Shown: in pieces, positions 45,957 through 59,888 of the stretch | How positions within the stretch are numbered: the first letter of the stretch is position 1 | Layout of the letters: the number at the start of each line of letters is the position of its first letter | Origin: Candidatus Poribacteria bacterium | GTDB lineage: Bacteria > Poribacteria > WGA-4E > WGA-3G | Length of the DNA stretch: 64,000 nt | Assembly (NCBI GenBank): GCA_963665235.2 | Contig: CAXXLX010000001.1 | Span: forward strand, 3,904,001-3,968,000 | Reading direction: 5' to 3' | Program-made: the position numbers and the translations under genes | Notes under the pieces: generated by a model | Databases searched by the model: none | Told to the model about the DNA's origin: nothing | What the model saw: the letters and a program-made list of their open reading frames with translations, nothing else

Positions 45957-46032
45957 AGTTTAAGTAGATTGTTACCTTTTCAAAGACGCGTCTGTTTTAG
46001 AGCACCGATAGCACGTGATACGGAGAAAAAAA

Positions 46033-47679
46033 ATGAGAAGTTTTGGCACCGAGGGACGTGTATATCCTGATGAACATTATGTTGTGCCGCGCACATCAGA
46101 AATCGCTGATTTCATTCAGCGCGTCAAAGCTGGTAAGTATATTGTGCTGTTTGCACCACGCCAGACAGGCAAAACCACCTTTTTCCAATTTGCACTATCC
46201 GCGCTTGTCGCAGAAGACCCAACCTATTTCCCGATACAGTTGGATTTTCAAGACCTCCGCAATGTCTCACCTGCCACGTTTTACGAGGAGCTCTACTACA
46301 TGATTCGCGAGCAAATAGAGGTTGTTTTCGAACAGCGGGAGGGCCTTCCTTCTGAGGCATTAGCACGATTTTTGGAAAACACCCAGCTAACCAATCATCG
46401 TTCAATGACGCGATTCTTTAAACAATTGCAGCACCTATTTCAAACACCTATTGTGAGCGCGAATTTACTAGAAAGTGATTCCCATGAACAAGTGATGACT
46501 TTCAAGCGGGTTGTGTTGTTGATTGACGAGTTTGATGGCATCCCGCCAACTGTCGTGAGCGATTTCCTTTATGCCCTCCGCCGAATTTACCTTTCCGGCA
46601 AACCCCGTTGTCCGCACAGTGTGGGCATTGTCGGGGTTAAGAACATCACACAACTGGATTATGATTCCTCTGTCTCACCTTTCAATATCCAAAATGAGTT
46701 CAAATTGCCGAACTTCACAGTTGAGCAGGTCCGTGAGCTGTTTTCACAGTATACCGATGAAACCGGGCAAACGGTCGCACCGGAGGTCCTTCACACACTA
46801 CACAAACAGACTGCCGGGCAACCCTTCCTTGTCAACCGAATAGCACAAATACTCACTGAAGAATTGGGCATTCCCAAAACAGAGAAACTGACACAGGAAC
46901 ACTTTGCCCAAGCACACCAGCGACTCCTACGAGAAGGAAACACCAATATCGATCATTTGAGAACTAATGTCCGCAGAGATAGAGGTTTTGAAAAAATACT
47001 GATGCGTATCGCCTCTTACGACAGAGGTTTGCCTTTTAATCCAGAGGATGAGCTCATGAATAAGTTGGTCACTTATGGGGTCATCGCAGAAGGCTCAGAC
47101 GGTATGTGTGAGATAGTGAACCCGATTTATCAGCATCGCATCCTACTGATGTTCAAACCGACCTTTAACGGACTTGAGGACACCTACTTCCCCAAGGACA
47201 CCGGTGTAGATTTTATTGATTATCTGACCCCGGCCGGTCAGTTGGAAATGAGAGGATTGCTTGATAACTTCAAGGATTTCATCGCCCGCGCAGGATTTCG
47301 TATCCTGTTAGTCCCGGATACACCTCGGGAGTATGTCGGTCAACACCTACTTTACGCATATTTGGATAACTTTGTGCGCGTCGTCGGGGCGGATATGTTT
47401 CTTGAGGTGCAAACCGGACGCGGCAGAATCGACCTGCTTATCCTCCATAACGGAAAAAAATACATCATTGAAACAAAGATATGGGATGGGAACAAGTCCT
47501 ATATCGCAGGCAAAAAACAGCTATCCGCGTATCTTAAATTGGAGAATGCAGTGGAAGGGTATTATATCGTGTTCGATCATCGGGAAACCCCGATGCCGCT
47601 TGTGGAAACAGAAACGATTGATGGGGTGCCCATACGGAGTTATGTCATTCCTGTGGTCCAGGAAAAACCCTCATCATAA
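46033..47679 (+). CDS. AAA-like ATPase with C-terminal PD-(D/E)XK nuclease-like domain, copy 1
   Basis: APRQTGKTT, LLIDEFD, GQPFLVN, GRIDLLI...YIIETK. Confidence 0.88.
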   Translation: MRSFGTEGRVYPDEHYVVPRTSEIADFIQRVKAGKYIVLFAPRQTGKTTFFQFALSALVAEDPTYFPIQLDFQDLRNVSPATFYEELYYMIREQIEVVFEQREGLPSEALARFLENTQLTNHRSMTRFFKQLQHLFQTPIVSANLLESDSHEQVMTFKRVVLLIDEFDGIPPTVVSDFLYALRRIYLSGKPRCPHSVGIVGVKNITQLDYDSSVSPFNIQNEFKLPNFTVEQVRELFSQYTDETGQTVAPEVLHTLHKQTAGQPFLVNRIAQILTEELGIPKTEKLTQEHFAQAHQRLLREGNTNIDHLRTNVRRDRGFEKILMRIASYDRGLPFNPEDELMNKLVTYGVIAEGSDGMCEIVNPIYQHRILLMFKPTFNGLEDTYFPKDTGVDFIDYLTPAGQLEMRGLLDNFKDFIARAGFRILLVPDTPREYVGQHLLYAYLDNFVRVVGADMFLEVQTGRGRIDLLILHNGKKYIIETKIWDGNKSYIAGKKQLSAYLKLENAVEGYYIVFDHRETPMPLVETETIDGVPIRSYVIPVVQEKPSS

Positions 47680-47689
47680 GGAGGAAAAA

Positions 47690-49339
47690 ATGAGAAGTTT
47701 TGGCACCGAGGGACGTGTATACCCTCATAAGCATTATGTTGTGCCGCGCACATCAGAAATCGCTGATTTCATTCAGCGCGTCAAAGCTGGTAAGTATATT
47801 GTGCTGTTTGCACCACGCCAGACAGGCAAAACAACCTTCTTCCGATTCGCACTCTCCGCGCTTGTCGCAGAAGAACCGTCCTATTTTCCAATACAGCTGG
47901 ACTTTCAAGACCTGCGTGATGTTTCACCTGCCACGTTTTACGAGGAGCTCTACTACATGATTCGCGAGCAAATAGAGGTTGTTTTCGAACAGCGGGAGGG
48001 CCTTCCTTCTGAGGCATTAGCACGATTTTTGGAAAACACCCAGCTAACCAATCATCGTTCAATGACGCGATTCTTTAAACAATTGCAGCACCTATTGCAA
48101 GCACCTATTGCAAGCGCGAATTTACTAGAAAGTGATTCCCATGAACAAGTGATGACTTTCAAGCGGGTTGTGTTGTTGATTGACGAGTTTGATGGCATCC
48201 CGCCAACTGTCGTGAGCAGCTTTCTTTATGCCCTCCGCCGAATTTACCTTTCCGATGAGATGCCCTGTCCATACAGTGTCGGTATTGTCGGGGTTAAGAA
48301 CATCACACAATTAGACTACGACTCCTCTGTCTCACCTTTCAATATCCAAAATGAGTTCAAATTGCCGAACTTTACACTCGAAGAGGTGCGCGAACTATTC
48401 GGACAGTATACGGCAGAAGTCGGACAACCCTTCGCACCGGAGGTCATCGACTCCATTCATAAACAGACTTCCGGGCAACCCTTCCTTGTCAATCGGTTCG
48501 GGCAAATACTCACGGAAGAATTAGAGATTCCGAAAACAGAGACGATTACTCCCGAACACTTTGCGAAAGCACATGCACTACTCCTTAAGGAAAACAACGT
48601 CAACCTCAGGCATTTGTCCACAAATATCCGCAGAAACCGACGTTTTGAAACCTTCCTCATGCGTATTATGGCGAAAGATGAAGGCATAGAATTCAACTTA
48701 TACGATGACGTTATCAGCGAGTTAGCCACTTACGGGGTCATTACAAAAGGAGAGGATGATACGTGTGAGATTGTGAACCCCATTTATCTGTATTGTATTC
48801 TAAAAACATTCAAACCTGCCGTGAACGGACTAGAAGATGAATACTTCACCGAAGACACGCCTAGCGGTTTTCTACACTACCTCACGCCTACGGGAGAGAT
48901 TGCGTTAGAGGCATTATTGGACAACTTTCGGGATTTCATTGTGCGTGCGGGTTTCGGGATTCTACAGGTGCCGGATACACCCCGGGAGTCTGTCGGGAGA
49001 TTGCTGCTACTATCCTATCTTGACCAGTTTGTGAAACTTGTCGGCGGGGTGATGCACATAGAGGTGCCAACGGGCCGGGGTCGGATGGATTTGCTGATTA
49101 CGCACAAGCAAAAGAAATATATCGTTGAAACCAAGGTATGGCGCGGGGCGGTATATTATGAGGCGGGCAAGAAGCAGCTGGCCGCGTATATGAAAACAGA
49201 GGGGGCAGTGGAAGGGTATTATATCGTGTTCGATCATCGTGAAACCCCGATGCCGCTTGTGGAAACAGAAACGATTGATGGGGTGCCCATACGGAGTTAT
49301 GTCATTCCTGTGGTCCAGGAACAGCCTTCGTCTGTTTGA
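47690..49339 (+). CDS. AAA-like ATPase with C-terminal PD-(D/E)XK nuclease-like domain, copy 2
   Basis: AGGAGG RBS; same motifs; GRMDLLI...YIVETK. Confidence 0.88.
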   Translation: MRSFGTEGRVYPHKHYVVPRTSEIADFIQRVKAGKYIVLFAPRQTGKTTFFRFALSALVAEEPSYFPIQLDFQDLRDVSPATFYEELYYMIREQIEVVFEQREGLPSEALARFLENTQLTNHRSMTRFFKQLQHLLQAPIASANLLESDSHEQVMTFKRVVLLIDEFDGIPPTVVSSFLYALRRIYLSDEMPCPYSVGIVGVKNITQLDYDSSVSPFNIQNEFKLPNFTLEEVRELFGQYTAEVGQPFAPEVIDSIHKQTSGQPFLVNRFGQILTEELEIPKTETITPEHFAKAHALLLKENNVNLRHLSTNIRRNRRFETFLMRIMAKDEGIEFNLYDDVISELATYGVITKGEDDTCEIVNPIYLYCILKTFKPAVNGLEDEYFTEDTPSGFLHYLTPTGEIALEALLDNFRDFIVRAGFGILQVPDTPRESVGRLLLLSYLDQFVKLVGGVMHIEVPTGRGRMDLLITHKQKKYIVETKVWRGAVYYEAGKKQLAAYMKTEGAVEGYYIVFDHRETPMPLVETETIDGVPIRSYVIPVVQEQPSSV

Positions 49340-50884: not shown

Positions 50885-52428
50885 GACTGCCGACGCAGCA
50901 CCCTTCCCGGCAAATGTCCTGTTACATTTCCATCCTCAACTACCGACACACCGTTTACTAACACCCAATCCACACCGATAGGCGGTTGCACCGGATCAAA
51001 CCATGTGGAACGGTCAGCGACAGTGTCCGGGTTGAAAACGACGATATCCGCAGCAAGTCCACGCGCAATTCTGCCCCGGTCCGATAGTCTAAACCGTTCT
51101 GCTGGAAAACCGCTCATCTTATAGATGGCCTCTTTCAACGAAATCAGTTGACGTTCCCGCACGAACTTGCCGAGATATTGCACAAAACACCCGTAGCTCC
51201 GGGGATGTGGATGCGGAATGTTGTAAACGCCATCACTTGCAATCATCATGCGGGGATGGTTCGCAGTGCGGTTCAAAATACGTTCGTTCTCTTCGGGGGG
51301 TGTGCCCCACGGCATCACAAACGTCTCAATCGCGGCTTCTTCACAAATGAGATCAAAGGCGAATTCTTCATGAGATTTCCCTTCACTTTGTGCTGCTTCA
51401 GCGAGCGTCATCCCGATAAATCTGCCGGAGCGGTTGTAACCCACAATCTGATTACCCTCACTTAATTTTCCTTGCAGGTGTGCAAGCGATTTTTCACGGA
51501 CATCCGGATTTTCTAAGTTTTCTAACATGTCATCGGGTGCGCCGGTCTGAAATTCCATCGGAAGCATCATCGCAAGGTGCGTCATACCTGCTGGATAAAG
51601 GTAGGATTCAAACGTCAGGTCTATCTGTTCTCTCTCCACGCGTTCAAGCAGGTCTAATGCTTCATCGTCAACGCGTTCATGTGAAATATGCACCGGAATT
51701 TCGGCACGTTGGGCAATTTCAATTGTCTCCTCCCACGCCCGCTTTCTACCGATGAGCTGGTAGCGAACATGTGCTGCGTAGATGGCATCGTAAGCCGCCG
51801 CAATTTTTGAAAGAGCGACCAACTCGCGCAAATTGGCATTGGCTGAGGGTTGATAGTCAAGCCCTAAGCATAAACAGCACGCGCCTGCTTCCAACCATTC
51901 GCGTGTCGTGCGTTCCATCGCTCTCAGTTCATCGTTAGTGGCGGGACGTGCAGCCCATCCCATCGCCCCGAGGCGGACAGCGCAATGTGGCACTTGCGGA
52001 TAGAGATTGGCAGGAATTTGCCCATGAAAAATATCGAGATATGCGTCCGGTGTTTCCCAATTCAGTGAGAGTTCGGCATCGCCATAAGCAAATTGTGTGT
52101 AGTGCCACAACTCCCGCGCCAATTTTGGGGATAACGGTGCCCAGCCAAATCCATCAGGCGCAGCGAGATGTGTTGTTACCCCTTGGCTAACAGCCGCAAA
52201 TTGGTCTCTACCGCCGAGCAGGGCAATTTCGGAATGGACGTGAACGTCAATGAAGCCGGGGCAAACGATTTTGTCTTTTGCAGAAATCCGATGCGGTGTT
52301 TCCGCCTTTGCAAGGTCACCGATAGCGGTGATGCTATCGTCCTGAATGCCGATATCCGCTACGAACGGTTCTCGTTTCCCGGTACCATCAATGACGTTTC
52401 CGCCGGCAATAATAACATCAAATATCAC
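50881..52428 (-). CDS. N-acyl-D-amino-acid deacylase family amidohydrolase
   Basis: PGFIDVHVHS, AHVR, HISH, ASDG, PHPRSYG, ADIVVF. Confidence 0.92.
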   Translation of the reverse strand: MIFDVIIAGGNVIDGTGKREPFVADIGIQDDSITAIGDLAKAETPHRISAKDKIVCPGFIDVHVHSEIALLGGRDQFAAVSQGVTTHLAAPDGFGWAPLSPKLARELWHYTQFAYGDAELSLNWETPDAYLDIFHGQIPANLYPQVPHCAVRLGAMGWAARPATNDELRAMERTTREWLEAGACCLCLGLDYQPSANANLRELVALSKIAAAYDAIYAAHVRYQLIGRKRAWEETIEIAQRAEIPVHISHERVDDEALDLLERVEREQIDLTFESYLYPAGMTHLAMMLPMEFQTGAPDDMLENLENPDVREKSLAHLQGKLSEGNQIVGYNRSGRFIGMTLAEAAQSEGKSHEEFAFDLICEEAAIETFVMPWGTPPEENERILNRTANHPRMMIASDGVYNIPHPHPRSYGCFVQYLGKFVRERQLISLKEAIYKMSGFPAERFRLSDRGRIARGLAADIVVFNPDTVADRSTWFDPVQPPIGVDWVLVNGVSVVEDGNVTGHLPGRVLRRQS

Positions 52429-52468
52429 AAATTTCTCCTTTGATTTTCCACCTGCTGATAGTCGTTTG

Positions 52469-52861
52469 TTACAAAACCCATGATTCTATGGTGTCAGCAA
52501 TTGCTTCGATATCGCTCATGGAGCCATCGGCAATCTTAAAACCGAGTTCAATGATTGAATCGTCAATGTCAAGCCGCAGAGTGCAACCGTTAAATTCTAA
52601 AAACAGGAGCGCACAGTTCATGCCGATACGTTTATTTCCATCCAAAAATATGTGACCAGCAATAATCTGATGGGCATACACAGCAGCTTTTTGGGGCAAA
52701 GTCGGATACAGTTCCCCGTCACCAAATTTTGCACACACAACTTCGACTAAATAGTCCAACTGGTCTTTGTGCAAAAACTGATAATTACCGACATGTTTCT
52801 CGGCAGCCTCCAGAATTTCCGCGATTGTCAAATATCTGATATGTTGCCTAAGGTTGTCCAT
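52469..52861 (-). CDS. doc: Doc/Fic family toxin
   Basis: HIFLDGNKRIG matches Doc HxFx(D/N)(G/A)NKR; LYPTLPQKAA. Confidence 0.9.
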   Translation of the reverse strand: MDNLRQHIRYLTIAEILEAAEKHVGNYQFLHKDQLDYLVEVVCAKFGDGELYPTLPQKAAVYAHQIIAGHIFLDGNKRIGMNCALLFLEFNGCTLRLDIDDSIIELGFKIADGSMSDIEAIADTIESWVL

Positions 52862-53235
52862 GCGCGCTCGTAGTCTCGCAGCATTTCGTCTAAAGCGGTG
52901 CTGCTGTTTATCCCGATGTTGCTAGCGGTTTGCATGTCTGCTTTCGCTTTGTCTATCTTTCCAAGGCGTAACCAAGCCTTGCTGCGACAGTAATAAGCAT
53001 CAGCATAATCGGGTTTGATTTCTATCGCCGCGGTATAGTCCGCAACGGCTTTGTCAAGTTCGCCATTTTTAGCGTAAGCACGCCCGCGCTGATAGGATGC
53101 CTCGGCAAACTCCGGATTCAGTTCTATCGCCCTGGTGTAGTCTTTAATAGCAAGTTCAACCTCGCCTTTTTCGCTAGACGCTACACCGCACGTGTAATAT
53201 TTATTGGCAAGTTCTTGATTTCGTTTTTGCATCAT
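52828..53235 (-). CDS. Short TPR protein with antitoxin-like C-terminal peptide
   Basis: Three TPRs; tail LDEMLRDYERAWTTLG overlaps doc start. Confidence 0.8.
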   Translation of the reverse strand: MMQKRNQELANKYYTCGVASSEKGEVELAIKDYTRAIELNPEFAEASYQRGRAYAKNGELDKAVADYTAAIEIKPDYADAYYCRSKAWLRLGKIDKAKADMQTASNIGINSSTALDEMLRDYERAWTTLGNISDI

Positions 53236-53729
53236 TTATTCTCTGCTTCACCTGCGTCTTGCAGGGCATTGTTGATGACCGATTCGCTCAGGTGCATTCC
53301 GTTTTTCTTCAACTGAATTAGAAGTGGCTTGATGACATCAATCAAACCTTCTTGCTTTGCCTCAAGCAGGATGCCTACTGTGCCTTTAACCGTTAATCCG
53401 ATTTCCTCTGCTCGCCGCCTTCCCCTCTTTTCATCAAGAAGAATAAGGCTGGCCTCATGTTCAACTGCAAGAGCCAGAGCTTCTGCTTCTCCAGGATCGA
53501 CACCTCGATAATCTGTAGCACCTTGCGGATTCGTCAGATCGACAACTTTAATCCACGGGGCACTGTTGAGGGCTTCCCGACGGACTCTCGGATCCTTTTT
53601 GAGAAACTCTTTTTCAACTTCTCTTGGAATCCACACCTCTGTATAAAGATCACGCAACAGAGAAAGAAGGTTGAGCATGAAGAGTCCAACAAGCGGACTG
53701 TTATTGCTAATAACTATCTGTATTGGCAT
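53232..53729 (-). CDS. DUF3368 PIN-domain protein, copy A
   Basis: IVISNNSPL, PREVEKE, DPGEAEAL, LLDEKRGR, GTVGILLEAK. Confidence 0.9.
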   Translation of the reverse strand: MPIQIVISNNSPLVGLFMLNLLSLLRDLYTEVWIPREVEKEFLKKDPRVRREALNSAPWIKVVDLTNPQGATDYRGVDPGEAEALALAVEHEASLILLDEKRGRRRAEEIGLTVKGTVGILLEAKQEGLIDVIKPLLIQLKKNGMHLSESVINNALQDAGEAENK

Positions 53730-53731
53730 TC

Positions 53732-55192
53732 TTAAAATCCGCTATTGATAAGCTCCTCCTCATCAACATAAAAAGGAGAGAGCCCATAATCTGCCATCAG
53801 GTACCAGAATTCTTCGCGCGAGACACCTGCAAGCTTCGAGGCAAGCCCGCTGCTGAGTTCACCGCTCCCGTAATACTTCATGCCCAACGCAATCCGCGCG
53901 TCCTGCTCCATCTCAAACGGTCCTGTTAGCGGTGTTAGCAGTGCCACAATTTCTTTCGGTAACTGAACCTTCATTTTCTGTTCAAAAGCAGTAATGCTCT
54001 GATGTGTGTCCTGAAACGCTGCGGCGACATCTACGTCTTGTAGGAGTGCGGCTGTCAGGTCGGTCTCCGCTTCTTCCCAACCTTTGGCAAGCAACCACGC
54101 CTCACCGCGTCTGTAATAGAATTCGGGAAGCTTCGGTCTGCGCGTTAAAGCCTCAGTATAATCCGCAATTGCGCTATCTAACTCGGCGTTGTCACGATGG
54201 GCGTTGCCACGATGTGTGTATGCCGCCACAAGTTCCGGATTGAGTTGTATCGCTTCATCGTAATCCGCAATTGCCTTGTCCAATTCGTTTTTGGCATAGT
54301 AAGCCTGACCCCGATTGAGGTATGCTTCGGCTAACGCCGGGTTGCAAGCGATGGCTTTGTTGTGTTCTTCAATTGCCTTGTCTACCTCACCCTGTTCGTT
54401 GTAGATGAGACCGCGGCAGGTATAGGGCTCAGCAAATTCCGGGTTGACTTCTATTGCTTTGTTGTAATCCGCAATAGCTGTGTCTATCTCGCCTTTATCA
54501 CGATAAGCTTGACCGCGCGCTGTCCAAGCCTCCGCAAATTCTGCATCCAGTGCTATCGCAGCGTTATAGTTCTCAATAGCAAGGTCTATATCCCCTTTGC
54601 AATGGTAAGTAAAACCGCGCTGGGTGTATGCAGCAGCAGCCGTATCGGGTTCGAGACGTATCGCGGTGCTGAAGTCCTGGATGGCCTTCTCAAAAGCAAA
54701 GAGGTTCCGGTAAGCCACGCCACGTGCCAAATAGGCAAAAGAATCGTCAGGTGTGAAGCTTAGGACTTTGCTAAGGTCACGAACGACGAGGAAAAACTTG
54801 CCCTCTGCATAGTAAGCCGAACTACGCCCCTTATAGGCAAGGACAATAGGCTCAAAATTCAGCTCTATGGCTTTGCTGAAGTCTTCAATAGCTTGATTGT
54901 GCTCACCTTTTTTGTAGTAAGCAGTGGCACGATTGTAATACGCCTCGGCAAAATGCGGCTCCAGTTTTATCGCCTTGCTGAAGGCTGCGATTGCGCGTGT
55001 GTGCTCACCCTTTTTACTGTAAGCGATGCCTTGGGTGTTATGTCGTGTTGCAGCGTCTTCTCTTTTTCTGTCGACACAATCGCTGTTGTAATAGGTATCC
55101 ATAGCACCTTGGATCCGTTCCTGTATGATTGACGTTCCCCATGTAGAACGCGCTATCACCGTATCTAGAGCACTTTGGAACAGTTCTTGCAT
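53732..55192 (-). CDS. TPR-repeat protein fused to C-terminal UPF0175 antitoxin-like domain, copy A
   Basis: About 10 TPRs; ARIALGMKYYGSGELSSGLASKLAGVSREEFWYLMADYG (UPF0175-type HTH). Confidence 0.88.
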   Translation of the reverse strand: MQELFQSALDTVIARSTWGTSIIQERIQGAMDTYYNSDCVDRKREDAATRHNTQGIAYSKKGEHTRAIAAFSKAIKLEPHFAEAYYNRATAYYKKGEHNQAIEDFSKAIELNFEPIVLAYKGRSSAYYAEGKFFLVVRDLSKVLSFTPDDSFAYLARGVAYRNLFAFEKAIQDFSTAIRLEPDTAAAAYTQRGFTYHCKGDIDLAIENYNAAIALDAEFAEAWTARGQAYRDKGEIDTAIADYNKAIEVNPEFAEPYTCRGLIYNEQGEVDKAIEEHNKAIACNPALAEAYLNRGQAYYAKNELDKAIADYDEAIQLNPELVAAYTHRGNAHRDNAELDSAIADYTEALTRRPKLPEFYYRRGEAWLLAKGWEEAETDLTAALLQDVDVAAAFQDTHQSITAFEQKMKVQLPKEIVALLTPLTGPFEMEQDARIALGMKYYGSGELSSGLASKLAGVSREEFWYLMADYGLSPFYVDEEELINSGF

Positions 55193-55312
55193 AACTTTTC
55201 TCCTTTACAAGATAGGTTTTTCTTGAGGATAATTATAACGGACAATACCCCCCGATTTCAACGGAATGTAGGAGCTGACCGCCCTACTTAAAAAAGCGAA
55301 CACTGTCTGTTT

Positions 55313-55430
55313 TCATGTCCCTATTTCAGCACCTTGTTCTATCAATTCGCTCGGATGAATGGATAGATACGCTCTCACTTCCAGATTCATCCGCTCGATT
55401 TCGGCAAGAAACCTCCTGCCGATTTCCCTC
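55313..55430 (-). pseudogene. C-terminal remnant of a small hypothetical gene
   Basis: RFLAEIERMNLEVRAYLSIHPSEL...stop, with no start, between the duplicated units. Confidence 0.45.
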
Positions 55431-55926
55431 AGATATTCTCTGCCTCACCTGCGTCTCGCAAGGCGTTATTGATGAGCGATTCGCTTAGGTGTATTCCGTT
55501 TTTCTGCAACTGAATTAGAAGTGGCTTGATGACATCAATCAAGCCTTCTTGCTTTGCCTCAAGCAGAATGCCAACTATCCCCTTAACCGTTAATCTGCTT
55601 TCCTCTGCTCGCCGCCTTCCCCTCTTTTCATCAAGAAGAATAAGGCTGGCCTCATGTTCAACTGCAAGAGCCAGAGCTTCTGCTTCTCCAGGATCGACAC
55701 CTTGATAATTTGCGGCACTTTGCGGATCTGTCAGATCGACAACTTTAATCCACGGGGCACTGTTGAGGGCTTCCCGACGGACTCTCGGATTCTTTTTGAG
55801 AAACTCTTTTTCAACTTCTCTTGGAATCCACACCTCTATATAAAGATCACGCAACAGAGAAAGAAGGTTGAGCCCAAAGAGGCCAACAAGCGGACTGTTA
55901 TTGCTGATAACTATCTGTACTGCCAT
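55429..55926 (-). CDS. DUF3368 PIN-domain protein, copy B
   Basis: Near-identical paralog of 53232..53729. Confidence 0.9.
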   Translation of the reverse strand: MAVQIVISNNSPLVGLFGLNLLSLLRDLYIEVWIPREVEKEFLKKNPRVRREALNSAPWIKVVDLTDPQSAANYQGVDPGEAEALALAVEHEASLILLDEKRGRRRAEESRLTVKGIVGILLEAKQEGLIDVIKPLLIQLQKNGIHLSESLINNALRDAGEAENI

Positions 55927-55928
55927 TC

Positions 55929-57389
55929 TTAATATCCGCTATTGATAAGCTCTTCTTCATCAACGTATAACGGAGAGAGCCCATAATCCGCCATCAGGTA
56001 CCAGAATTCTTCGCGCGAGACACCTGCAAGCTTCGAGGCAAGCCCGCTGCTGAGTTCACCGCTCCCGTAATACTTCATGCCCAACGCAATCCGCGCGTCT
56101 TGGTCAATCTCAAAGGGGCCTGTTAGCGGTGTTAGCAGTGCCACAATCTCTTTCGGTAGCTGAACCCCTATTTTCTGTTCAAAAGCAGTAATGCTCTGAT
56201 GTGTGTTCTGAAACGCTGCGGCGACATCTACGCCTTGTAGGAGTGCGGCTGTCAGGTCGGTCTCCGCTTCTTCCCAACCTTTGGCAAGCAACCACGCCTC
56301 ACCGCGTCTGTAATAGAATTCGGGAAGCTTCGGTCTGCGTGTTAAAGCCTCAGTATAATCCGCAATTGCGTTATCTAACTCAGGTTTGTCGCGATGGGCG
56401 TTGCCCCGATGTGTGTATGCCGCCACAAGTTCCGGATTGAGTTGTATGGCTTCGTCGTAATCCGCAATTGCTTTGTCCAATTCGCTTTTGGCATAGTAAG
56501 CCTGACCCCGATTGAGGTATGCTTCGGCTAACGCCGGGTTGTGAGCGATAGCTTTGTTGTGCTCTTCAATTGCTTTGTCAACCTCACCCTGTTCGTTGTA
56601 GATGAGACCGCGGCAGGTATAGGGCTCAGCAAGTTCTGGGTTGACTTCACTTGCCTTGTTGTAATCCGCAATTGCTGTGTTTATCTCACCTTTATCACGA
56701 TAAGCTTGACCGCGCGCTGTCCAAGCCCCCGCAAACTTCGGCTTCAGTGCTATCGCAGCGTTATAGTCCGCAATAGCAAGGTCTATATCCTCTTTGCAAT
56801 GGTAGGTTATACCGCGCTGGACGTATATATCAGCAACCGCATCGGGTTTGAGACGTATTGCCGCGCTGAAGTCCTGGATGGCTTTCTCAAAAACAAGGAG
56901 GTTACGGTAAGCCACGCCACGGGCCAAATAGGCAAAAGAATCTTCAGGTGTGAGGCTTAGGACTTTGCTAAAGTTATCAACGACGCGGTAAAACTTGTCT
57001 ACTGCATAGTAAGCCAAGCCGCGCCCTCTATAGGCAAGGACAACAGGCTCAAAATTCAGCTCTATGGCTTTGCTGAAGTCTTCAATAGCTTGATTGTGCT
57101 CACCTTTTTTGTAGTAAGCAGTGGCACGATTGTAATACGCCTCGGCAAAATGCGGCTCCAGTTTTACCGCCTTGCTGAAGGCTGCGATTGCATGTGCATG
57201 CTCACCCTTTTTACTGTAAGCGATGCCTTGGGTGTTATGTCGTGTTGCAGCGTCTTCTCTTTTTCCGTCGATACAATCGCTGTTGTAGTAGGTATCCATA
57301 GCCTCTTGGATCCGTTCTTGTATGATTGACGTTCCCCATGTAGAACGCGCTATTACCGTATCCAGAGCACTTTGGAACAGTTCTTGCAT
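55929..57389 (-). CDS. TPR-UPF0175 fusion protein, copy B
   Basis: Same length (486 aa) and architecture as copy A. Confidence 0.88.
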   Translation of the reverse strand: MQELFQSALDTVIARSTWGTSIIQERIQEAMDTYYNSDCIDGKREDAATRHNTQGIAYSKKGEHAHAIAAFSKAVKLEPHFAEAYYNRATAYYKKGEHNQAIEDFSKAIELNFEPVVLAYRGRGLAYYAVDKFYRVVDNFSKVLSLTPEDSFAYLARGVAYRNLLVFEKAIQDFSAAIRLKPDAVADIYVQRGITYHCKEDIDLAIADYNAAIALKPKFAGAWTARGQAYRDKGEINTAIADYNKASEVNPELAEPYTCRGLIYNEQGEVDKAIEEHNKAIAHNPALAEAYLNRGQAYYAKSELDKAIADYDEAIQLNPELVAAYTHRGNAHRDKPELDNAIADYTEALTRRPKLPEFYYRRGEAWLLAKGWEEAETDLTAALLQGVDVAAAFQNTHQSITAFEQKIGVQLPKEIVALLTPLTGPFEIDQDARIALGMKYYGSGELSSGLASKLAGVSREEFWYLMADYGLSPLYVDEEELINSGY

Positions 57390-57479
57390 AACTACTTTTC
57401 TCCTTTACAAGATGGGTTTTTCTTAAGGATAATGATAACGTACAATACCCCCCGATTTCAACAGAATGTAGGAGCGATA

Positions 57480-58880
57480 GGTGTGTGAAGTTTTTGTACA
57501 AAACCGGTGTAAATGTTACACTTTTGACACAAAGTGTAACATTCAGGTCTCGGTGCTGCATTGGCACAAACCCACGCCACGTCTATGTTTGTAAGCGGTT
57601 TGCACCTGCCTTGGACGATTTCGAAAAAAGTGAAATGTCACACTTTCGCTATCGGAGGATAAGCAGGTGAGTTGCAAAACGCACCGCTTTCCTCCGAAAA
57701 ATGGTTCGGTTTTCTGTTATGTTAGTTGCTAACATGTTTGCATTTTTCTTCACAAAAAATATTGTGTTGTTTTGGGTGAAGTATTACCCCTCTTAAGAAA
57801 CGCACCCGTTTTTTCTCTAGCTTCTATAAATATATCGTCCCGATGGGACTAAGAAGGGTGGTAGAAACCGCTGCTTTCCTCCGAAAAAAGTTTTGGTTTT
57901 CTGTTATGTTAGTTGCGAACTGTTTGATTTTTCTTCATAAAAAATATTATTGGCTCATTGGCAATTGGTGAAGGTTTACTAAAGTTTGGACAATTTTATG
58001 AGTTTGCATTGATTTCCGTGTCGTCTGAATGCACGTCGCATTTGGGCGAGTACGCCGCAAATCGCGGATTACACGGAGAACACGGAGAACGCGGAAAGGA
58101 GGTGCGTAACACTCCAAGTTTTGGGATTATAGGTTAGGGTATTGTGTATTCTATAAACATTCCGCCCCTCTGGGGCTAGGTTGTGGAGGCGTTGCGTATT
58201 CTATAAATATACCGCCCCTACGGGGCTGCGTTTTCACAGGAGAAGCGGGGAACCGTTTGCCCGAATACTGGGACTAAGAATCGGGGCGGAAACGACTTTC
58301 TATAAATATATCGTCCCTACAGGACTAATACCAAATTAACAGGATTCATATTGTTTTTCCATTTTGCAAATCCACTAAATTCGCGATAGTTTCCAAAAAT
58401 GATAATATAGAATTCCTTATTGTCAAAAATAGGCAAAAATGATAATATAGTCCTGAAGATTATTTTTTTAAATTCGGTATAAGCGGGCAGAAACGGCTGC
58501 TTCTATAAATATATCGTCCCTACGGGACTAAGAATCGGGGCGGAAATGGTTTTCTATAAATATATCGTCCCTACGGGACTAAGAGGCGGGCAGAAACCCA
58601 GATGCCTATAAACATATCGTCCCTAAGAAGCCGACTTATCGCCCAGTATTCGGGCAACCAGCCCGCTCCTCATACTAGGGGAAAACTTTTCAAACTCACG
58701 TTATACGACACGACGGGCGATGAATCGCCCTACTACGAACGGGGGTCCAAAAACTTTACACACCCAGGTGTGAGCCCCCATTCAGGTGTGAACCCCCATT
58801 AATTTCAGCATCACATACCGCTCCGCTGGAGCATAATCCGCGAAATCCGTGTAATCCGCGTCAATCCGCGATTCAGACAA
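57480..58880. repeat. Second large non-coding MITE/REP mosaic
   Basis: Inverted copy of the 28749-28960 unit, repeated CTATAAATATATCGTCCCTACGGGACT hairpins, GTAG REP at 58713, CGCGGATT nonamers. Confidence 0.8.
58329..58479. mobile_element. MITE with TACC...GGTA ends and TAA duplication
   Basis: GAC-TAA|TACCAAATT...AATTCGGTA|TAA-GCGGG; sister repeat units show a single TAA (empty site). Confidence 0.65.
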
Positions 58881-58943: not shown

Positions 58944-59888
58944 CTATTTCCCCTTCAAACTTTTCGCCTTCCGCAGCCGTGCCTCCACAAGATTAACAAC
59001 CGCTTCATACACCGCATCCCGTTCGCCTTGTGTGAGACCGAGAGCATCAAAGATAATCGCGTCAAGTGCGCGGCGGTCAGGTTGATTAATCTCATCAAAG
59101 ATTGACAAAACGGGTCGCTGTTTCATTGAGGCAAAGGCGCGTTGCAAACTCTCACCGCTTTGAGCATGAATCCAATCTGGGGAGATGAAATCAAAACTCA
59201 AAATGTCAGGGCCATAAGTTGTTAGCAACCCGTCTCCCAAATTGACTCTACCGTATATTTCAGAAACAAACACCGCTAAAGTAGAATTGGCAACTGCGTT
59301 TGCAGATTGAAGTGTCTCCCGATTATGAAGCGTTGCAGTGAACACAACATCACCAGCTAATAAAGAAGATATTTCGTTAATCGGAGTCCAATTTCTCTTA
59401 TCACGGAATCTCAAAATAAACCAATCAAAAGGTGGTTGTTCACCTAAATCCCACCAGCGTGGCCTGCCTCTGCAGCTCGGCCGCTGATGATACCCCTGTT
59501 TCTCACCCCACTCGATATACTCCAACGCAGCAGTTCCCGCCAACGCTGCCTTGTCCGCATGACACATAAACAGCTTGAACTTCAACTGACTCGGGTCTAC
59601 ACGGATACTCTTACACTCACGTGGGCTCTTAATGACAGGTTTCAAATATTCAGCCTCAATGCCCCATTCCTGAATTCGCTCGGTGTCAAGATAGAAGAAC
59701 TTGTTTGCACCCGTTTTGATGCCAAACCGCACCTCCGCAATGTTTCCGAGGCGCACCAGTTTATCTTTCCCCTTCTCTAAGAGCGTCCAATAGATATCCG
59801 GGGCGCGGAGATATTTCCCACCCCACTTGTCCCCAGCATACCTGTTTTCACGCGTGCCTGCTTGTGCCAGCTCGGTATTTGAAAACAT
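58944..59888 (-). pseudogene. C-terminal (specificity) fragment of a type IIG/Eco57I-like restriction-modification enzyme
   Basis: KWGGKYLRAP, LGNIAEVRFGIKTGANKFFYL, helical tail RRALDAIIFDALGL; no methyltransferase or nuclease motifs. Confidence 0.7.

What the first reader, a model, noticed from the sequence alone, without database searches (positions are those of the whole stretch)
52469..57389. Toxin-antitoxin modules whose antitoxins are fused to TPR arrays
Seen: TPR(~10)-UPF0175 followed 2 nt later by DUF3368 (twice), then TPR(3) with a short tail overlapping a Doc toxin. Established: UPF0175/DUF3368 is a predicted antitoxin/PIN-toxin pair with a normally stand-alone small antitoxin, and Doc is neutralised by a short C-terminal helix of its partner. 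Here both antitoxin types are reduced to tails on TPR scaffolds. Inference: a modular sensor-antitoxin system in which TPRs bind a phage or host protein and release an RNase or kinase toxin. Finding the same design with two unrelated toxins argues against a chance fusion.
Basis: partly seen in the sequence, partly recalled or inferred. Interest (0 to 1): 0.82.

Follow-up and report, generated by a model that had tools for sequence, protein, structure and literature searches.

The report
Toxin-antitoxin pairs with TPR-fused antitoxins
A sponge-symbiont (Poribacteria) genome carries three small toxin-antitoxin-like gene pairs whose antitoxins sit at the end of tetratricopeptide (TPR) repeat arrays, a design that recurs across much of this phylum and may link toxin release to binding of another protein.

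Summary
On the minus strand lie two paralogous pairs, each a TPR(~9-10)-UPF0175 protein (486 aa) followed 2 nt later by a DUF3368 PIN protein (165 aa). The second pair runs straight into a 3-TPR protein (135 aa) that overlaps a Doc gene (130 aa). This is not a chance fusion. The closest relatives found are in Candidatus Poribacteria, where 57 TPR-UPF0175 genes in 55 loci range from 206 to 1346 aa, and 39 have an intact PIN gene downstream. A Doc ortholog occurs in 104 of 176 genomes of the phylum. In 29 of 30 loci examined its partner is a TPR protein ending in a conserved tail..L+xYxRAWxxLGN.

A co-fold places this tail on Doc's Fic motif (0.91; best control 0.00). The same tail closes a 69-aa non-TPR partner, and its pattern resembles the ends of Phd-type antitoxins. 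The Asn at the first PIN acidic position is normal for the family (58 of 135 representatives).

I read these as type II toxin-antitoxin modules in which a TPR array takes the place of the usual antitoxin N-terminal domain. The sensor role of the TPRs is untested. UPF0175 is a whole domain here, not a tail. This is a new variant of a known kind.

The parts
57432..57461 (-). promoter-like site of unit A (TTGAAA-18-TATCAT)
   Evidence: 10 of 12 matches. It lies in the ~90-nt upstream stretch shared by both units. This is a consensus match only.
55929..57389 (-). TPR(~9-10)-cap-UPF0175 protein A, 486 aa, the predicted antitoxin. Cap module 56127-56321; UPF0175 domain 55947-56120.
   Evidence: AAGGAG lies 8-11 nt before the ATG.
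55429..55926 (-). DUF3368/COG2405 PIN protein A, 165 aa, the predicted RNase toxin
   Evidence: It starts 2 nt after the upstream stop.
55232..55261 (-). promoter-like site of unit B (TTGAAA-18-TATAAT)
   Evidence: 11 of 12 matches. Consensus match only.
53732..55192 (-). TPR(~9-10)-cap-UPF0175 protein B, 486 aa. Cap module 53930-54124; UPF0175 domain 53750-53923.
53232..53729 (-). DUF3368/COG2405 PIN protein B, 165 aa
   Evidence: The AlphaFold2 model has pLDDT 96.1 and its top Foldseek matches are VapC/PIN structures.
52828..53235 (-). 3-TPR protein with a Doc-binding tail (tail aa 111-135 = 52831-52905), 135 aa. Its start overlaps the stop of PIN B (ATGA).
52469..52861 (-). Doc (Fic-fold) toxin, 130 aa. 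The motif HIFLDGNKR is at aa 70-78 (52628-52654). There is a 34-nt overlap with the TPR3 gene.

Best explanation
The locus holds three type II toxin-antitoxin-like modules of two kinds. Each is built from a conventional toxin and an antitoxin whose usual small N-terminal domain has been replaced by a TPR array.

Kind 1 is present twice, as a diverged tandem duplicate. It is a TPR(n)-'cap'-UPF0175 protein followed by a COG2405/DUF3368 PIN RNase. The C-terminal UPF0175 (HTH) domain is the part expected to bind and silence the PIN protein.

Kind 2 is a short TPR protein whose last repeat, together with a C-terminal helix of about 25 aa, lies over the Fic motif of a Doc kinase. Its position in the protein, its sequence pattern and its predicted binding site match those of the C-terminal end of Phd-type antitoxins.

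Shown here:
- the architecture;
- its conservation across Poribacteria;
- translational coupling of the genes;
- the predicted tail-Doc interface;
- decay of the toxin gene beside a retained antitoxin gene in some genomes.

Inferred: that the toxins are active and are neutralised in this way. I also infer that the TPR array is a protein-binding platform tying the antitoxin's availability to some other protein, by ligand sensing, docking or turnover. For the role of the TPRs my odds are:
- about 0.35 that it senses a specific trigger;
- about 0.3 that it is a passive scaffold or oligomerisation domain;
- about 0.2 that it docks a chaperone or protease;
- the rest for something else.
For: Domains. 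The domain calls are above the curated cut-offs.

Gene order. The spacing fits co-translated pairs: 2-nt gaps, an ATGA overlap and a 34-nt overlap.

Known pairing. UPF0175/COG2886 has been reported only beside COG2405 PIN genes and is predicted to be their antitoxin (passages of PMC5499597, and PMC2701414).

Conservation of kind 1:
- 7 of 7 long relatives found by the C-terminal part carry both TPR and PF03683.
- 55 genome loci were found; 51 are titled Poribacteria and 4 'uncultured bacterium'.
- These loci hold 57 TPR-cap-UPF0175 ORFs of 206-1346 aa (median 479). The PIN gene downstream is intact in 39, fragmentary in 10 and absent in 8. Loss of the toxin with retention of the antitoxin is what a harmful toxin would produce.

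The PIN protein:
- The model has pLDDT 96.1, and the best PDB matches are VapC/PIN proteins 1y82, 5h4g and 2mdt.
- E41, E81, D99 and E100 are retained. In 135 family representatives these positions read E 135, E 134, D 135 and E/D 135. The first position is D in 77 and N in 58.
- It matches the PADLOC defence-candidate models PDC-S70 at 1.3e-44.

Conservation of kind 2:
- A Doc ortholog occurs in 104 of 176 genomes of the phylum.
- In 29 of 30 loci examined the upstream gene is a TPR protein ending in ..L+xYxRAWxxLGN. In 1 of 30 (L077) it is a 69-aa non-TPR protein with the same tail.
- The N-terminal helix of that 69-aa family carries three different tails in 11 fetched members: 6 Doc-type, 3 of a second type and 2 of a third. 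The tail is therefore an exchangeable toxin-specific module.
- Partners of distant Doc relatives on viral contigs include Phd_YefM proteins (one above the cut-off, two below), and 7 of the 8 partners read in full end in a similar pattern..L+KxxxA[FWM]xxL[AS]K.

Co-fold of Doc with the whole TPR3 protein:
- The score was 0.91 in three runs; the best of 3 controls was 0.00.
- That mark was reached by 116 of 157 solved complexes and 2 of 215 mismatched pairs.
- Run-to-run contact agreement was at least 98%, and partner pLDDT was 93.
- Contacts run from TPR3 aa 82-134 to Doc aa 73-78 (LDGNKR) among others. They include the tail's invariant residues Y122, A125, W126 and L129.

Other:
- Doc keeps HIFLDGNKR. 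This fits the motif HPFx[D/E]GN[G/K]R quoted in the abstract of PMC2686095 (listing).
- Both paralogous units are under purifying selection (dN/dS 0.36 at dS 0.15). Change is concentrated in TPR3-5 (0.78, against 0.13 in UPF0175).
Against: - No experiment shows toxicity or neutralisation here, and none is known for any UPF0175/DUF3368 pair. The papers I read call these potential or predicted.
- The first PIN acidic residue is Asn in 41 of 41 Poribacterial copies, so reduced or altered catalysis cannot be excluded.
- Phd-Doc complexes are solved (3k33, 3dd7, 3kh2 matched). The co-fold pass may therefore partly reflect likeness to known structures, and I used my own alignments.
- The Doc gene is mostly single-copy and present in 59% of the phylum's genomes, with orthologs 58-76% identical. 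This looks more like a vertically kept, domesticated gene than a mobile addiction module.
- TPR arrays are very common in this lineage. The same TPR-cap scaffold also sits beside or on FRG, D12 methyltransferase and TaqI_C domains, so its presence may say little that is specific to toxin control.
- The immediate neighbours are housekeeping genes (amidohydrolase, pyridine-nucleotide disulphide oxidoreductase, SAICAR synthetase). This is not a clear defence island.
Confidence: 0.68

Rival explanations
1. The TPR arrays are passive. They act as a stable folded handle or oligomerisation domain acquired in a lineage where consensus-like TPR units expand and contract freely, and they have no signalling role. 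The modules then work as ordinary toxin-antitoxin pairs.
For: - Array length varies about 6-fold among orthologs (206-1346 aa) while the C-terminal part stays 55-88% identical. Repeat slippage would produce this.
- Most Doc partners have only 2-3 well-conserved TPRs.
- In the co-fold the last TPR itself is part of the Doc interface, which suggests a structural role.
- The own genome has 16 ORFs with the TPR-cap module, and most end right after the cap with no linked effector.
Against: - The fusion has been kept across at least four families of the phylum (full-length matches in f1, f2, f3 and f8).
- Both window paralogs keep intact arrays under purifying selection, and amino-acid change is focused on TPR3-5 (dN/dS 0.78, against 0.17-0.39 in the other TPRs). 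This suggests the arrays matter and have diverged in specificity.
- Small stand-alone UPF0175 antitoxins coexist in the same genome and phylum, so the TPR is not needed just to make a working antitoxin.
Confidence: 0.2
2. These are not toxin-antitoxin modules. The TPR proteins are adaptors or regulators that hold a PIN RNase and a Doc-type kinase and direct them to particular substrates or partners as part of normal physiology. They would be domesticated enzymes rather than poisons.
For: - Doc is near single-copy and widely retained in the phylum (104 of 176 genomes).
- The PIN protein carries Asn at the first acidic site in 41 of 41 copies.
- The chromosomal neighbours are housekeeping genes.
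- No relative of the TPR-UPF0175 module was found on viral contigs (0 confirmed of 63 pattern matches).
- From my own recall, not tested here: eukaryotic FICD uses TPRs to engage its substrate.
Against: - The tail is predicted to cover the Fic catalytic motif itself (Doc aa 73-78). That is inhibition, not presentation of a substrate.
- The tail's pattern resembles that at the end of Phd-type antitoxins.
- PIN genes are broken or lost next to retained TPR-UPF0175 genes in 18 of 57 cases.
- The N variant is equally common in stand-alone family members.
Confidence: 0.08
3. TPR-UPF0175 is above all a ligand-sensing transcription factor: a TPR sensor plus an HTH domain, in the spirit of peptide-sensing RRNPP regulators. 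It would switch the downstream PIN (and Doc) genes on or off, rather than neutralising the toxin by direct binding.
For: - UPF0175 is predicted to be a Fis-like HTH (PMC2701414 passage).
- The weak structural matches of the cap+UPF0175 model are to HTH DNA-binding domains (AraC, NtrC1; E about 1-3).
- Each unit has its own promoter-like site just upstream.
Against: - Type II antitoxins commonly both bind DNA and neutralise, so this is more an addition than an alternative.
- The domain order is the reverse of RRNPP proteins (recalled).
- The structural matches are not significant (none with E <= 0.001).
- This reading does not explain the Doc partner, which has no HTH domain.
Confidence: 0.04

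Closest known systems
Phd-Doc of phage P1 and related Phd_YefM/Doc pairs
   Same: - The toxin is a Doc/Fic-fold protein with the motif HxFxDGNKR.
- The partner gene lies upstream and overlaps the toxin gene.
- The partner's C-terminal helix, with a similar residue pattern, is predicted to lie on the catalytic motif.
   Different: The partner has no Phd_YefM or other DNA-binding N-terminal domain. Instead it has 2-3 TPRs, and up to about 670 aa of TPRs in relatives. The last TPR adds to the predicted interface.
UPF0175 (COG2886) / COG2405-DUF3368 PIN predicted toxin-antitoxin pairs (Makarova 2009; Matelska 2017)
   Same: The same two Pfam families occur in the same order, on the same strand and a few nucleotides apart. 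A conventional small pair, a 109-aa UPF0175 protein followed by a 125-aa ORF, lies elsewhere in the same genome.
   Different: Here UPF0175 is the C-terminal domain of proteins of 206-1346 aa, with a TPR array and a conserved 'cap' module in front. The papers describe COG2886 as small proteins.
PADLOC defence candidate PDC-S70
   Same: The PIN protein matches seven PDC-S70 models (best 1.3e-44). The UPF0175 part weakly matches another (2e-4).
   Different: PDC-S70 is a candidate, not a tested system. Its models are 94-167 positions long, so they describe small proteins without TPRs.
Composite and modular antitoxins (for example MazE-Doc TasA-TasB; Panacea-domain antitoxins)
   Same: A toxin-specific neutralising piece is combined with interchangeable other domains. 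Here the same Doc tail sits on either a TPR array or a 45-aa helix, and that helix carries three different tails.
   Different: The exchanged domain is a repeat array of variable length. I saw these papers only as titles and abstract starts in search listings.
Fused toxin-antitoxin immune sensors such as CapRel
   Same: In concept, an antitoxin part that could also be the site where a trigger protein binds.
   Different: There is no sequence or domain relation, the toxin and antitoxin are separate proteins here, and no trigger is known. I saw these papers only as listings and abstract starts.

Membership tests
UPF0175 / COG2886 antitoxin | Match to Pfam PF03683 above the gathering score | tested here: met
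   48.1 and 50.2 bits against a cut-off of 27.9, at aa 424-481, covering profile positions 12-69 of 75
UPF0175 / COG2886 antitoxin | Encoded directly upstream of a COG2405/DUF3368 PIN gene on the same strand | tested here: met
   2-nt spacer in both units. An intact PIN gene lies downstream in 39 of 57 relatives.
UPF0175 / COG2886 antitoxin | Small stand-alone protein | tested here: not met
   486 aa with about 9-10 TPRs in front; relatives are 206-1346 aa
UPF0175 / COG2886 antitoxin | Binds and neutralises the PIN partner | not tested
A bench test is needed.
COG2405 / DUF3368 PIN (VapC-like) toxin | Match to PF11848 and a PIN fold | tested here: met
   53.1 and 57.7 bits against a cut-off of 27.3. 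Model pLDDT 96.1; Foldseek's top matches are VapC/PIN proteins including 2mdt.
COG2405 / DUF3368 PIN (VapC-like) toxin | Conserved acidic active-site residues | tested here: inconclusive
   E41, E81, D99 and E100 are present. The first position is N in 41 of 41 Poribacterial copies, but also in 58 of 135 family representatives. The effect on activity is unknown.
Doc (death-on-curing, Fic fold) toxin | Match to TIGR01550 / PF02661 above the cut-off | tested here: met
   55.4 bits against 38.65; 35.9 bits against 24. A profile of 30 orthologs matches solved Doc chains 9vzc, 3k33, 3dd7 and 3kh2.
Doc (death-on-curing, Fic fold) toxin | Fic/Doc motif HxFx[D/E]GN[G/K]R | tested here: met
   HIFLDGNKR at aa 70-78. 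H70, F72, D74, G75, N76, K77 and R78 are invariant in 30 orthologs. The motif is as quoted in the abstract of PMC2686095.
Phd_YefM antitoxin | Phd_YefM N-terminal domain (PF02604) | tested here: not met
   Only TPR families match the 135-aa protein at E <= 0.01
Phd_YefM antitoxin | C-terminal helix that binds Doc at its active site | tested here: met
   This is a prediction only. The co-fold scored 0.91 against a best control of 0.00, and tail residues 111-134 touch Doc aa 73-78. The pattern resembles the tails of partners of viral Doc relatives, three of which match Phd_YefM.
TPR-sensor immune or quorum receptors (STAND/Avs, RRNPP) | TPR array joined to an NTPase or to an N-terminal HTH effector domain | tested here: not met
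   No NTPase family matched. The HTH (UPF0175) is C-terminal. TPR-S matched only below its cut-off (18.7-20.6 bits against 27.6).

The most novel reading that the evidence does not exclude
Poribacteria have turned a lineage-specific 'TPR array + cap' scaffold into a general input domain for conflict effectors. When fused to antitoxin modules (UPF0175, or a Phd-like Doc tail), the array binds a phage, host (sponge) or neighbour-cell protein or peptide. That binding frees or degrades the antitoxin, so a PIN RNase or a Doc kinase is released on cue. Repeat number and the TPR3-5 surface diversify to follow changing ligands, and the tandem paralogs in this window would be two specificities of one sensor family. 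The same scaffold beside FRG, D12 methyltransferase, TaqI_C and nucleotidyltransferase-like genes would be further outputs of the same input device.
Probability: 0.3. Interest if true: 0.85.

Novelty: new variant of a known kind. Interest (0 to 1): 0.6.

Why it matters
What triggers chromosomal toxin-antitoxin modules is a long-standing open question. Here the part of the antitoxin that normally only binds DNA is replaced by a classic protein-binding repeat array. This happens with two unrelated toxins, across much of a phylum of uncultured sponge symbionts.

That gives a concrete handle. One can look for what the TPRs bind, and compare full-length antitoxins with TPR-less ones. The locus also offers a natural series for studying how repeat arrays tune a switch: arrays from 2 to more than 30 repeats on the same neutralising module, and two diverged paralogs side by side.

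It also links two features for which sponge symbionts are known, abundant eukaryote-like repeat proteins and abundant toxin-antitoxin or defence genes. Finally, it shows that the Doc-neutralising helix is a portable module.

If the TPRs prove to be passive, the finding is still a tidy example of modular antitoxin evolution, but no more than that.

Tried and rejected
- Sequence searches of the PIN protein and of the cap+UPF0175 part against solved structures found nothing meaningful (best E 2.4 and 1.4).
- Foldseek on the cap+UPF0175 model (pLDDT 88.7) gave no match with E <= 0.001. There were only weak HTH-like rows.
- The ESM Atlas look-up of aa 340-486 returned only generic TPR clusters and was uninformative.
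- Earlier findings of this scan: nothing near this place and nothing by words.
- Expression: no RNA holder was listed among 6 public runs, so this gives no evidence either way.
- Logan contigs of 4 runs were laid on 52400-57600. The pieces are short (138-535 nt listed) and none spans the region. They cover 26-29 of 30 bins, and copy-specific pieces match with 0 differences, for example 55127-55363 and 54501-54682 in X1. This weakly supports both copies being real but cannot show the tandem order as a whole.
- Viral contigs: none of 63 pattern matches encodes a TPR-cap-UPF0175 relative. The Doc relatives there are distant, 27-59% identity over the best segment. My regular expressions for TPRs and for the tail were crude and scored 0 of 34. 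Several upstream ORFs were picked in the wrong frame, so I rely only on the 8 partners read in full.
- I considered the Asn at the first PIN position as a sign of a dead enzyme. I rejected it as diagnostic.
- I considered the two module types to be one four-gene system. I rejected that because only 4 of 30 Doc loci have the other module within 1.5 kb.
- My first attempt to measure identity upstream of the two units without gaps failed because of a 3-nt indel. It was redone by alignment.
- Six literature searches found no description of a TPR-fused UPF0175 or Doc antitoxin. The library lacks most subscription journals, and I opened no supplements.

Full report
**What is there**

Between 52469 and 57389 six ORFs lie head to tail on the minus strand.
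- The first two (55929-57389, 486 aa; 55429-55926, 165 aa) are repeated 2197 nt downstream (53732-55192 and 53232-53729).
- The repeated proteins share 434 of 486 and 147 of 164 residues. At the DNA level 90% of bases agree over 2052 nt.
- The repeat begins about 90 nt upstream of each start codon. It includes a promoter-like site: TTGAAA-18-TATCAT for unit A and TTGAAA-18-TATAAT for unit B. These are consensus matches only.
- In each unit the 165-aa gene starts 2 nt after the stop of the 486-aa gene.
- The stop of the second 165-aa gene overlaps (ATGA) the start of a 135-aa gene (52828-53235). The last 34 nt of that gene overlap a 130-aa gene (52469-52861).

**Domains**

- Pfam finds eight TPR_1 stretches in both 486-aa proteins. 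I count about 9-10 repeats by eye.
- Both also have a UPF0175 domain at aa 424-481 (48.1 and 50.2 bits; cut-off 27.9; profile positions 12-69 of 75).
- The 165-aa proteins match DUF3368.
- The 135-aa protein matches TPR families only, with three repeats.
- The 130-aa protein matches Fic. NCBIfam names it a death-on-curing toxin (TIGR01550, 55.4 bits; cut-off 38.65).

UPF0175 is a whole C-terminal domain here, not a tail.

**Where the design occurs**

The C-terminal 102 residues, searched among long proteins, found 7 relatives of 270-648 aa. All 7 carry TPR families and PF03683.

A scan of one genome per species with the C-terminal 130 aa returned 55 loci. Of these, 51 are titled Candidatus or uncultured Poribacteria and 4 'uncultured bacterium'. 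The window's genome belongs to this phylum of sponge symbionts.

The loci hold 57 ORFs with the full C-terminal part.
- Their lengths run from 206 to 1346 aa, with a median of 479. The number of TPRs thus varies from about 3 to more than 30, while the last 130 residues stay 55-88% identical.
- A DUF3368 gene follows directly in 39 cases, is fragmentary in 10 and is missing in 8.

Across 176 genomes of the phylum, 147 match the profile. This count includes matches to the 'cap' part alone. Matches spanning both cap and UPF0175 are listed for families f1, f2, f3 and f8. Matches to the UPF0175 part alone lie in open frames of 93-162 aa in f2 and f3. These are conventional small antitoxins.

The window's own genome also has a conventional pair elsewhere. 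A 109-aa UPF0175 protein (PF03683, 8.9e-12) overlaps a 125-aa ORF that has no Pfam match but begins like a PIN domain.

**The PIN protein**

- It is Asn in all 41 Poribacterial copies aligned.
- A search of 1.84 billion representatives found 10,751 relatives. Among the 135 full-length proteins of the best 150, that position is Asp in 77 and Asn in 58.
- The positions matching E41, E81, D99 and E100 are E in 135, E in 134, D in 135 and E or D in 135.

Asn is thus a normal state of this family and no sign of decay. What it means for catalysis is unknown.

The AlphaFold2 model (pLDDT 96.1) matches VapC and other PIN structures best: 1y82, 5h4g and 2mdt. The last is the structure that Matelska et al. 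list for COG2405. PADLOC's defence-candidate models PDC-S70 match at 1.3e-44.

The literature I could read calls COG2405 proteins potential toxins and UPF0175/COG2886 their predicted HTH antitoxin. UPF0175 is said to occur exclusively with COG2405 (passages). No tested example is cited there.

**The Doc module**

The Doc protein keeps HIFLDGNKR, and these residues are invariant in 30 orthologs. An ortholog is present in 104 of 176 genomes of the phylum, mostly as one copy.

I examined the 30 best loci, the window's own included.
- In 29 the upstream overlapping gene is a TPR protein ending in a conserved tail. In the window it reads ..ALDEMLRDYERAWTTLGNISDI.
- E117, Y122, A125, W126 and L129 are invariant in 26 aligned partners.
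- Most partners have two or three TPRs. Some have open frames of more than 400 aa. Two partners in the first set of loci are 641 and 670 aa.
- In the remaining locus (L077, another family of the phylum) the partner is a 69-aa non-TPR protein with the same tail (..LDEIVRKYDRAWKTLAKP).

That small protein has 175 relatives. Of 11 that I fetched, 6 end in the Doc-type tail, 3 in a second kind of tail and 2 in a third, all on the same N-terminal helix. The tail is thus an exchangeable, toxin-specific module.

Partners of distant Doc relatives on viral contigs include Phd_YefM proteins: one above the Pfam cut-off and two below it. Of the 8 partners I read in full, 7 end in a similar pattern, for example ..ILKKFKPAFEELAK and ..ILRKHSGAWATLSAM.

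A co-fold of Doc with the whole 135-aa protein scored 0.91 in three runs. The best of three controls scored 0.00.
- That mark was reached by 116 of 157 solved complexes and 2 of 215 mismatched pairs.
- The runs agreed in at least 98% of contacts, and the partner's pLDDT was 93.
- The interface runs from the last TPR and the tail (aa 82-134) to Doc residues that include 73-78, the catalytic motif.

Since Phd-Doc complexes are solved, part of this pass may come from likeness to known structures. My own alignments were used, so the calibration holds only roughly.

**Are the two module types one system?**

No. Only 4 of the 30 Doc loci, the window included, have a cap, UPF0175 or PIN match within the 1.5-kb flanks. 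They are independent modules that sometimes sit together. In this window the TPR3-Doc pair is fused into the operon of unit B.

**What the TPRs might do**

Nothing here shows a ligand. Three observations bear on the question.
- Selection. Between the two window paralogs dN/dS is 0.36 overall at dS 0.15. It is 0.78 in TPR3-5 (aa 116-219), against 0.17-0.39 in the other TPRs, 0.13 in UPF0175 and 0.36 in the PIN protein. Both copies are therefore kept, and amino-acid change is concentrated in one part of the array.
- Array length. It varies widely among orthologs. This fits either a fast-evolving recognition surface or plain repeat slippage.
- The cap module. The stretch between the last TPR and UPF0175 (W..A..DL..A..G.D...F....S...FE.K..V.LP..I..LLT) ends many other Poribacterial TPR proteins. 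There are 16 such ORFs in the own genome, the two of the window included. Some of these sit beside or are fused to an FRG domain, a D12 adenine methyltransferase, a TaqI_C domain, or a gene that looks like a nucleotidyltransferase (by eye only).

The TPR-cap scaffold is thus a lineage-wide front end for several conflict-type genes, not a peculiarity of antitoxins.

**Reading**

I commit to type II toxin-antitoxin-like modules in which the neutralising piece is C-terminal and conventional. That piece is a UPF0175 domain in one kind and a Phd-like helix in the other. The N-terminal domain has been replaced by a TPR array (confidence 0.68).

The loss or breakage of the PIN gene beside a retained TPR-UPF0175 gene in 18 of 57 cases fits a harmful toxin.

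I give it about 0.3-0.35. The rivals are:
- a passive scaffold (0.2);
- domesticated enzymes with TPR adaptors (0.08);
- a mainly transcriptional TPR-HTH regulator (0.04).

**Context and novelty**

The immediate neighbours are housekeeping genes. Two AAA_35 ATPase ORFs and a fragment like the C-terminal part of a type II methyltransferase lie a few kb away.

Six full-text searches found no description of TPR-fused UPF0175 or Doc antitoxins. Subscription journals and supplements were not covered.

I rate this a new variant of a known kind.

Noticed in passing
window 57815-58625: At least seven copies of a 30-50-nt element, CTATAAATATATCGTCCCTACGGGAC, with a small hairpin (GTCCC-TAC-GGGAC). Spacings are about 50, 200 and 300 nt. 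There are 5 matches with up to 3 mismatches, against 0 expected. It could be a REP-like or regulatory repeat upstream of unit A.
   Followed up: partly
window 57671-57733 and 57858-57920: A 63-nt direct repeat, 83% identical and 187 nt apart. Each copy is followed by a 22-nt AT-rich repeat.
   Followed up: no
window 46015-47679 and 47333-49339 (+): Two overlapping ORFs, each with an AAA_35 ATPase-like domain. The first also has a NERD nuclease-related match. They may be one frameshifted or duplicated defence-type gene.
   Followed up: no
window 58944-59888 (-): A 314-aa ORF with no Pfam match. It matches the C-terminal parts of PADLOC type II and type IIG methyltransferase models (1e-23 and 1.5e-14). 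It looks like a gene fragment.
   Followed up: no
own genome: L087 (C2:545587-548435), L088 (C1:4217968-4221200), L089 (C1:168016-170055), C1:2569829-2571985: TPR arrays ending in the same 'cap' module sit next to a D12 adenine methyltransferase (4-nt overlap) or flank an FRG-domain gene. Others are fused to a TaqI_C domain or to an FRG-like stretch (the last judged by eye only). In all, 16 ORFs in the genome carry the cap.
   Followed up: partly
L077 and proteins P0286-P0391: A family of small proteins without any Pfam match. They share an N-terminal helix (M+KxDLQQQAVELIKQLSTE..) joined to at least three different C-terminal tails. One of these is the Doc-binding tail. This looks like a modular antitoxin family.
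   Followed up: partly
L012, L013, L015, L022 (Poribacteria loci): TPR-cap proteins with a C-terminal extension of about 350 aa, each followed by a gene that starts like a P-loop ATPase (..LLVYGENGSGKSS..). In three of the four loci this gene is full-length (476-479 aa); in L012 the locus ends 43 aa into it. Not annotated further.
   Followed up: no
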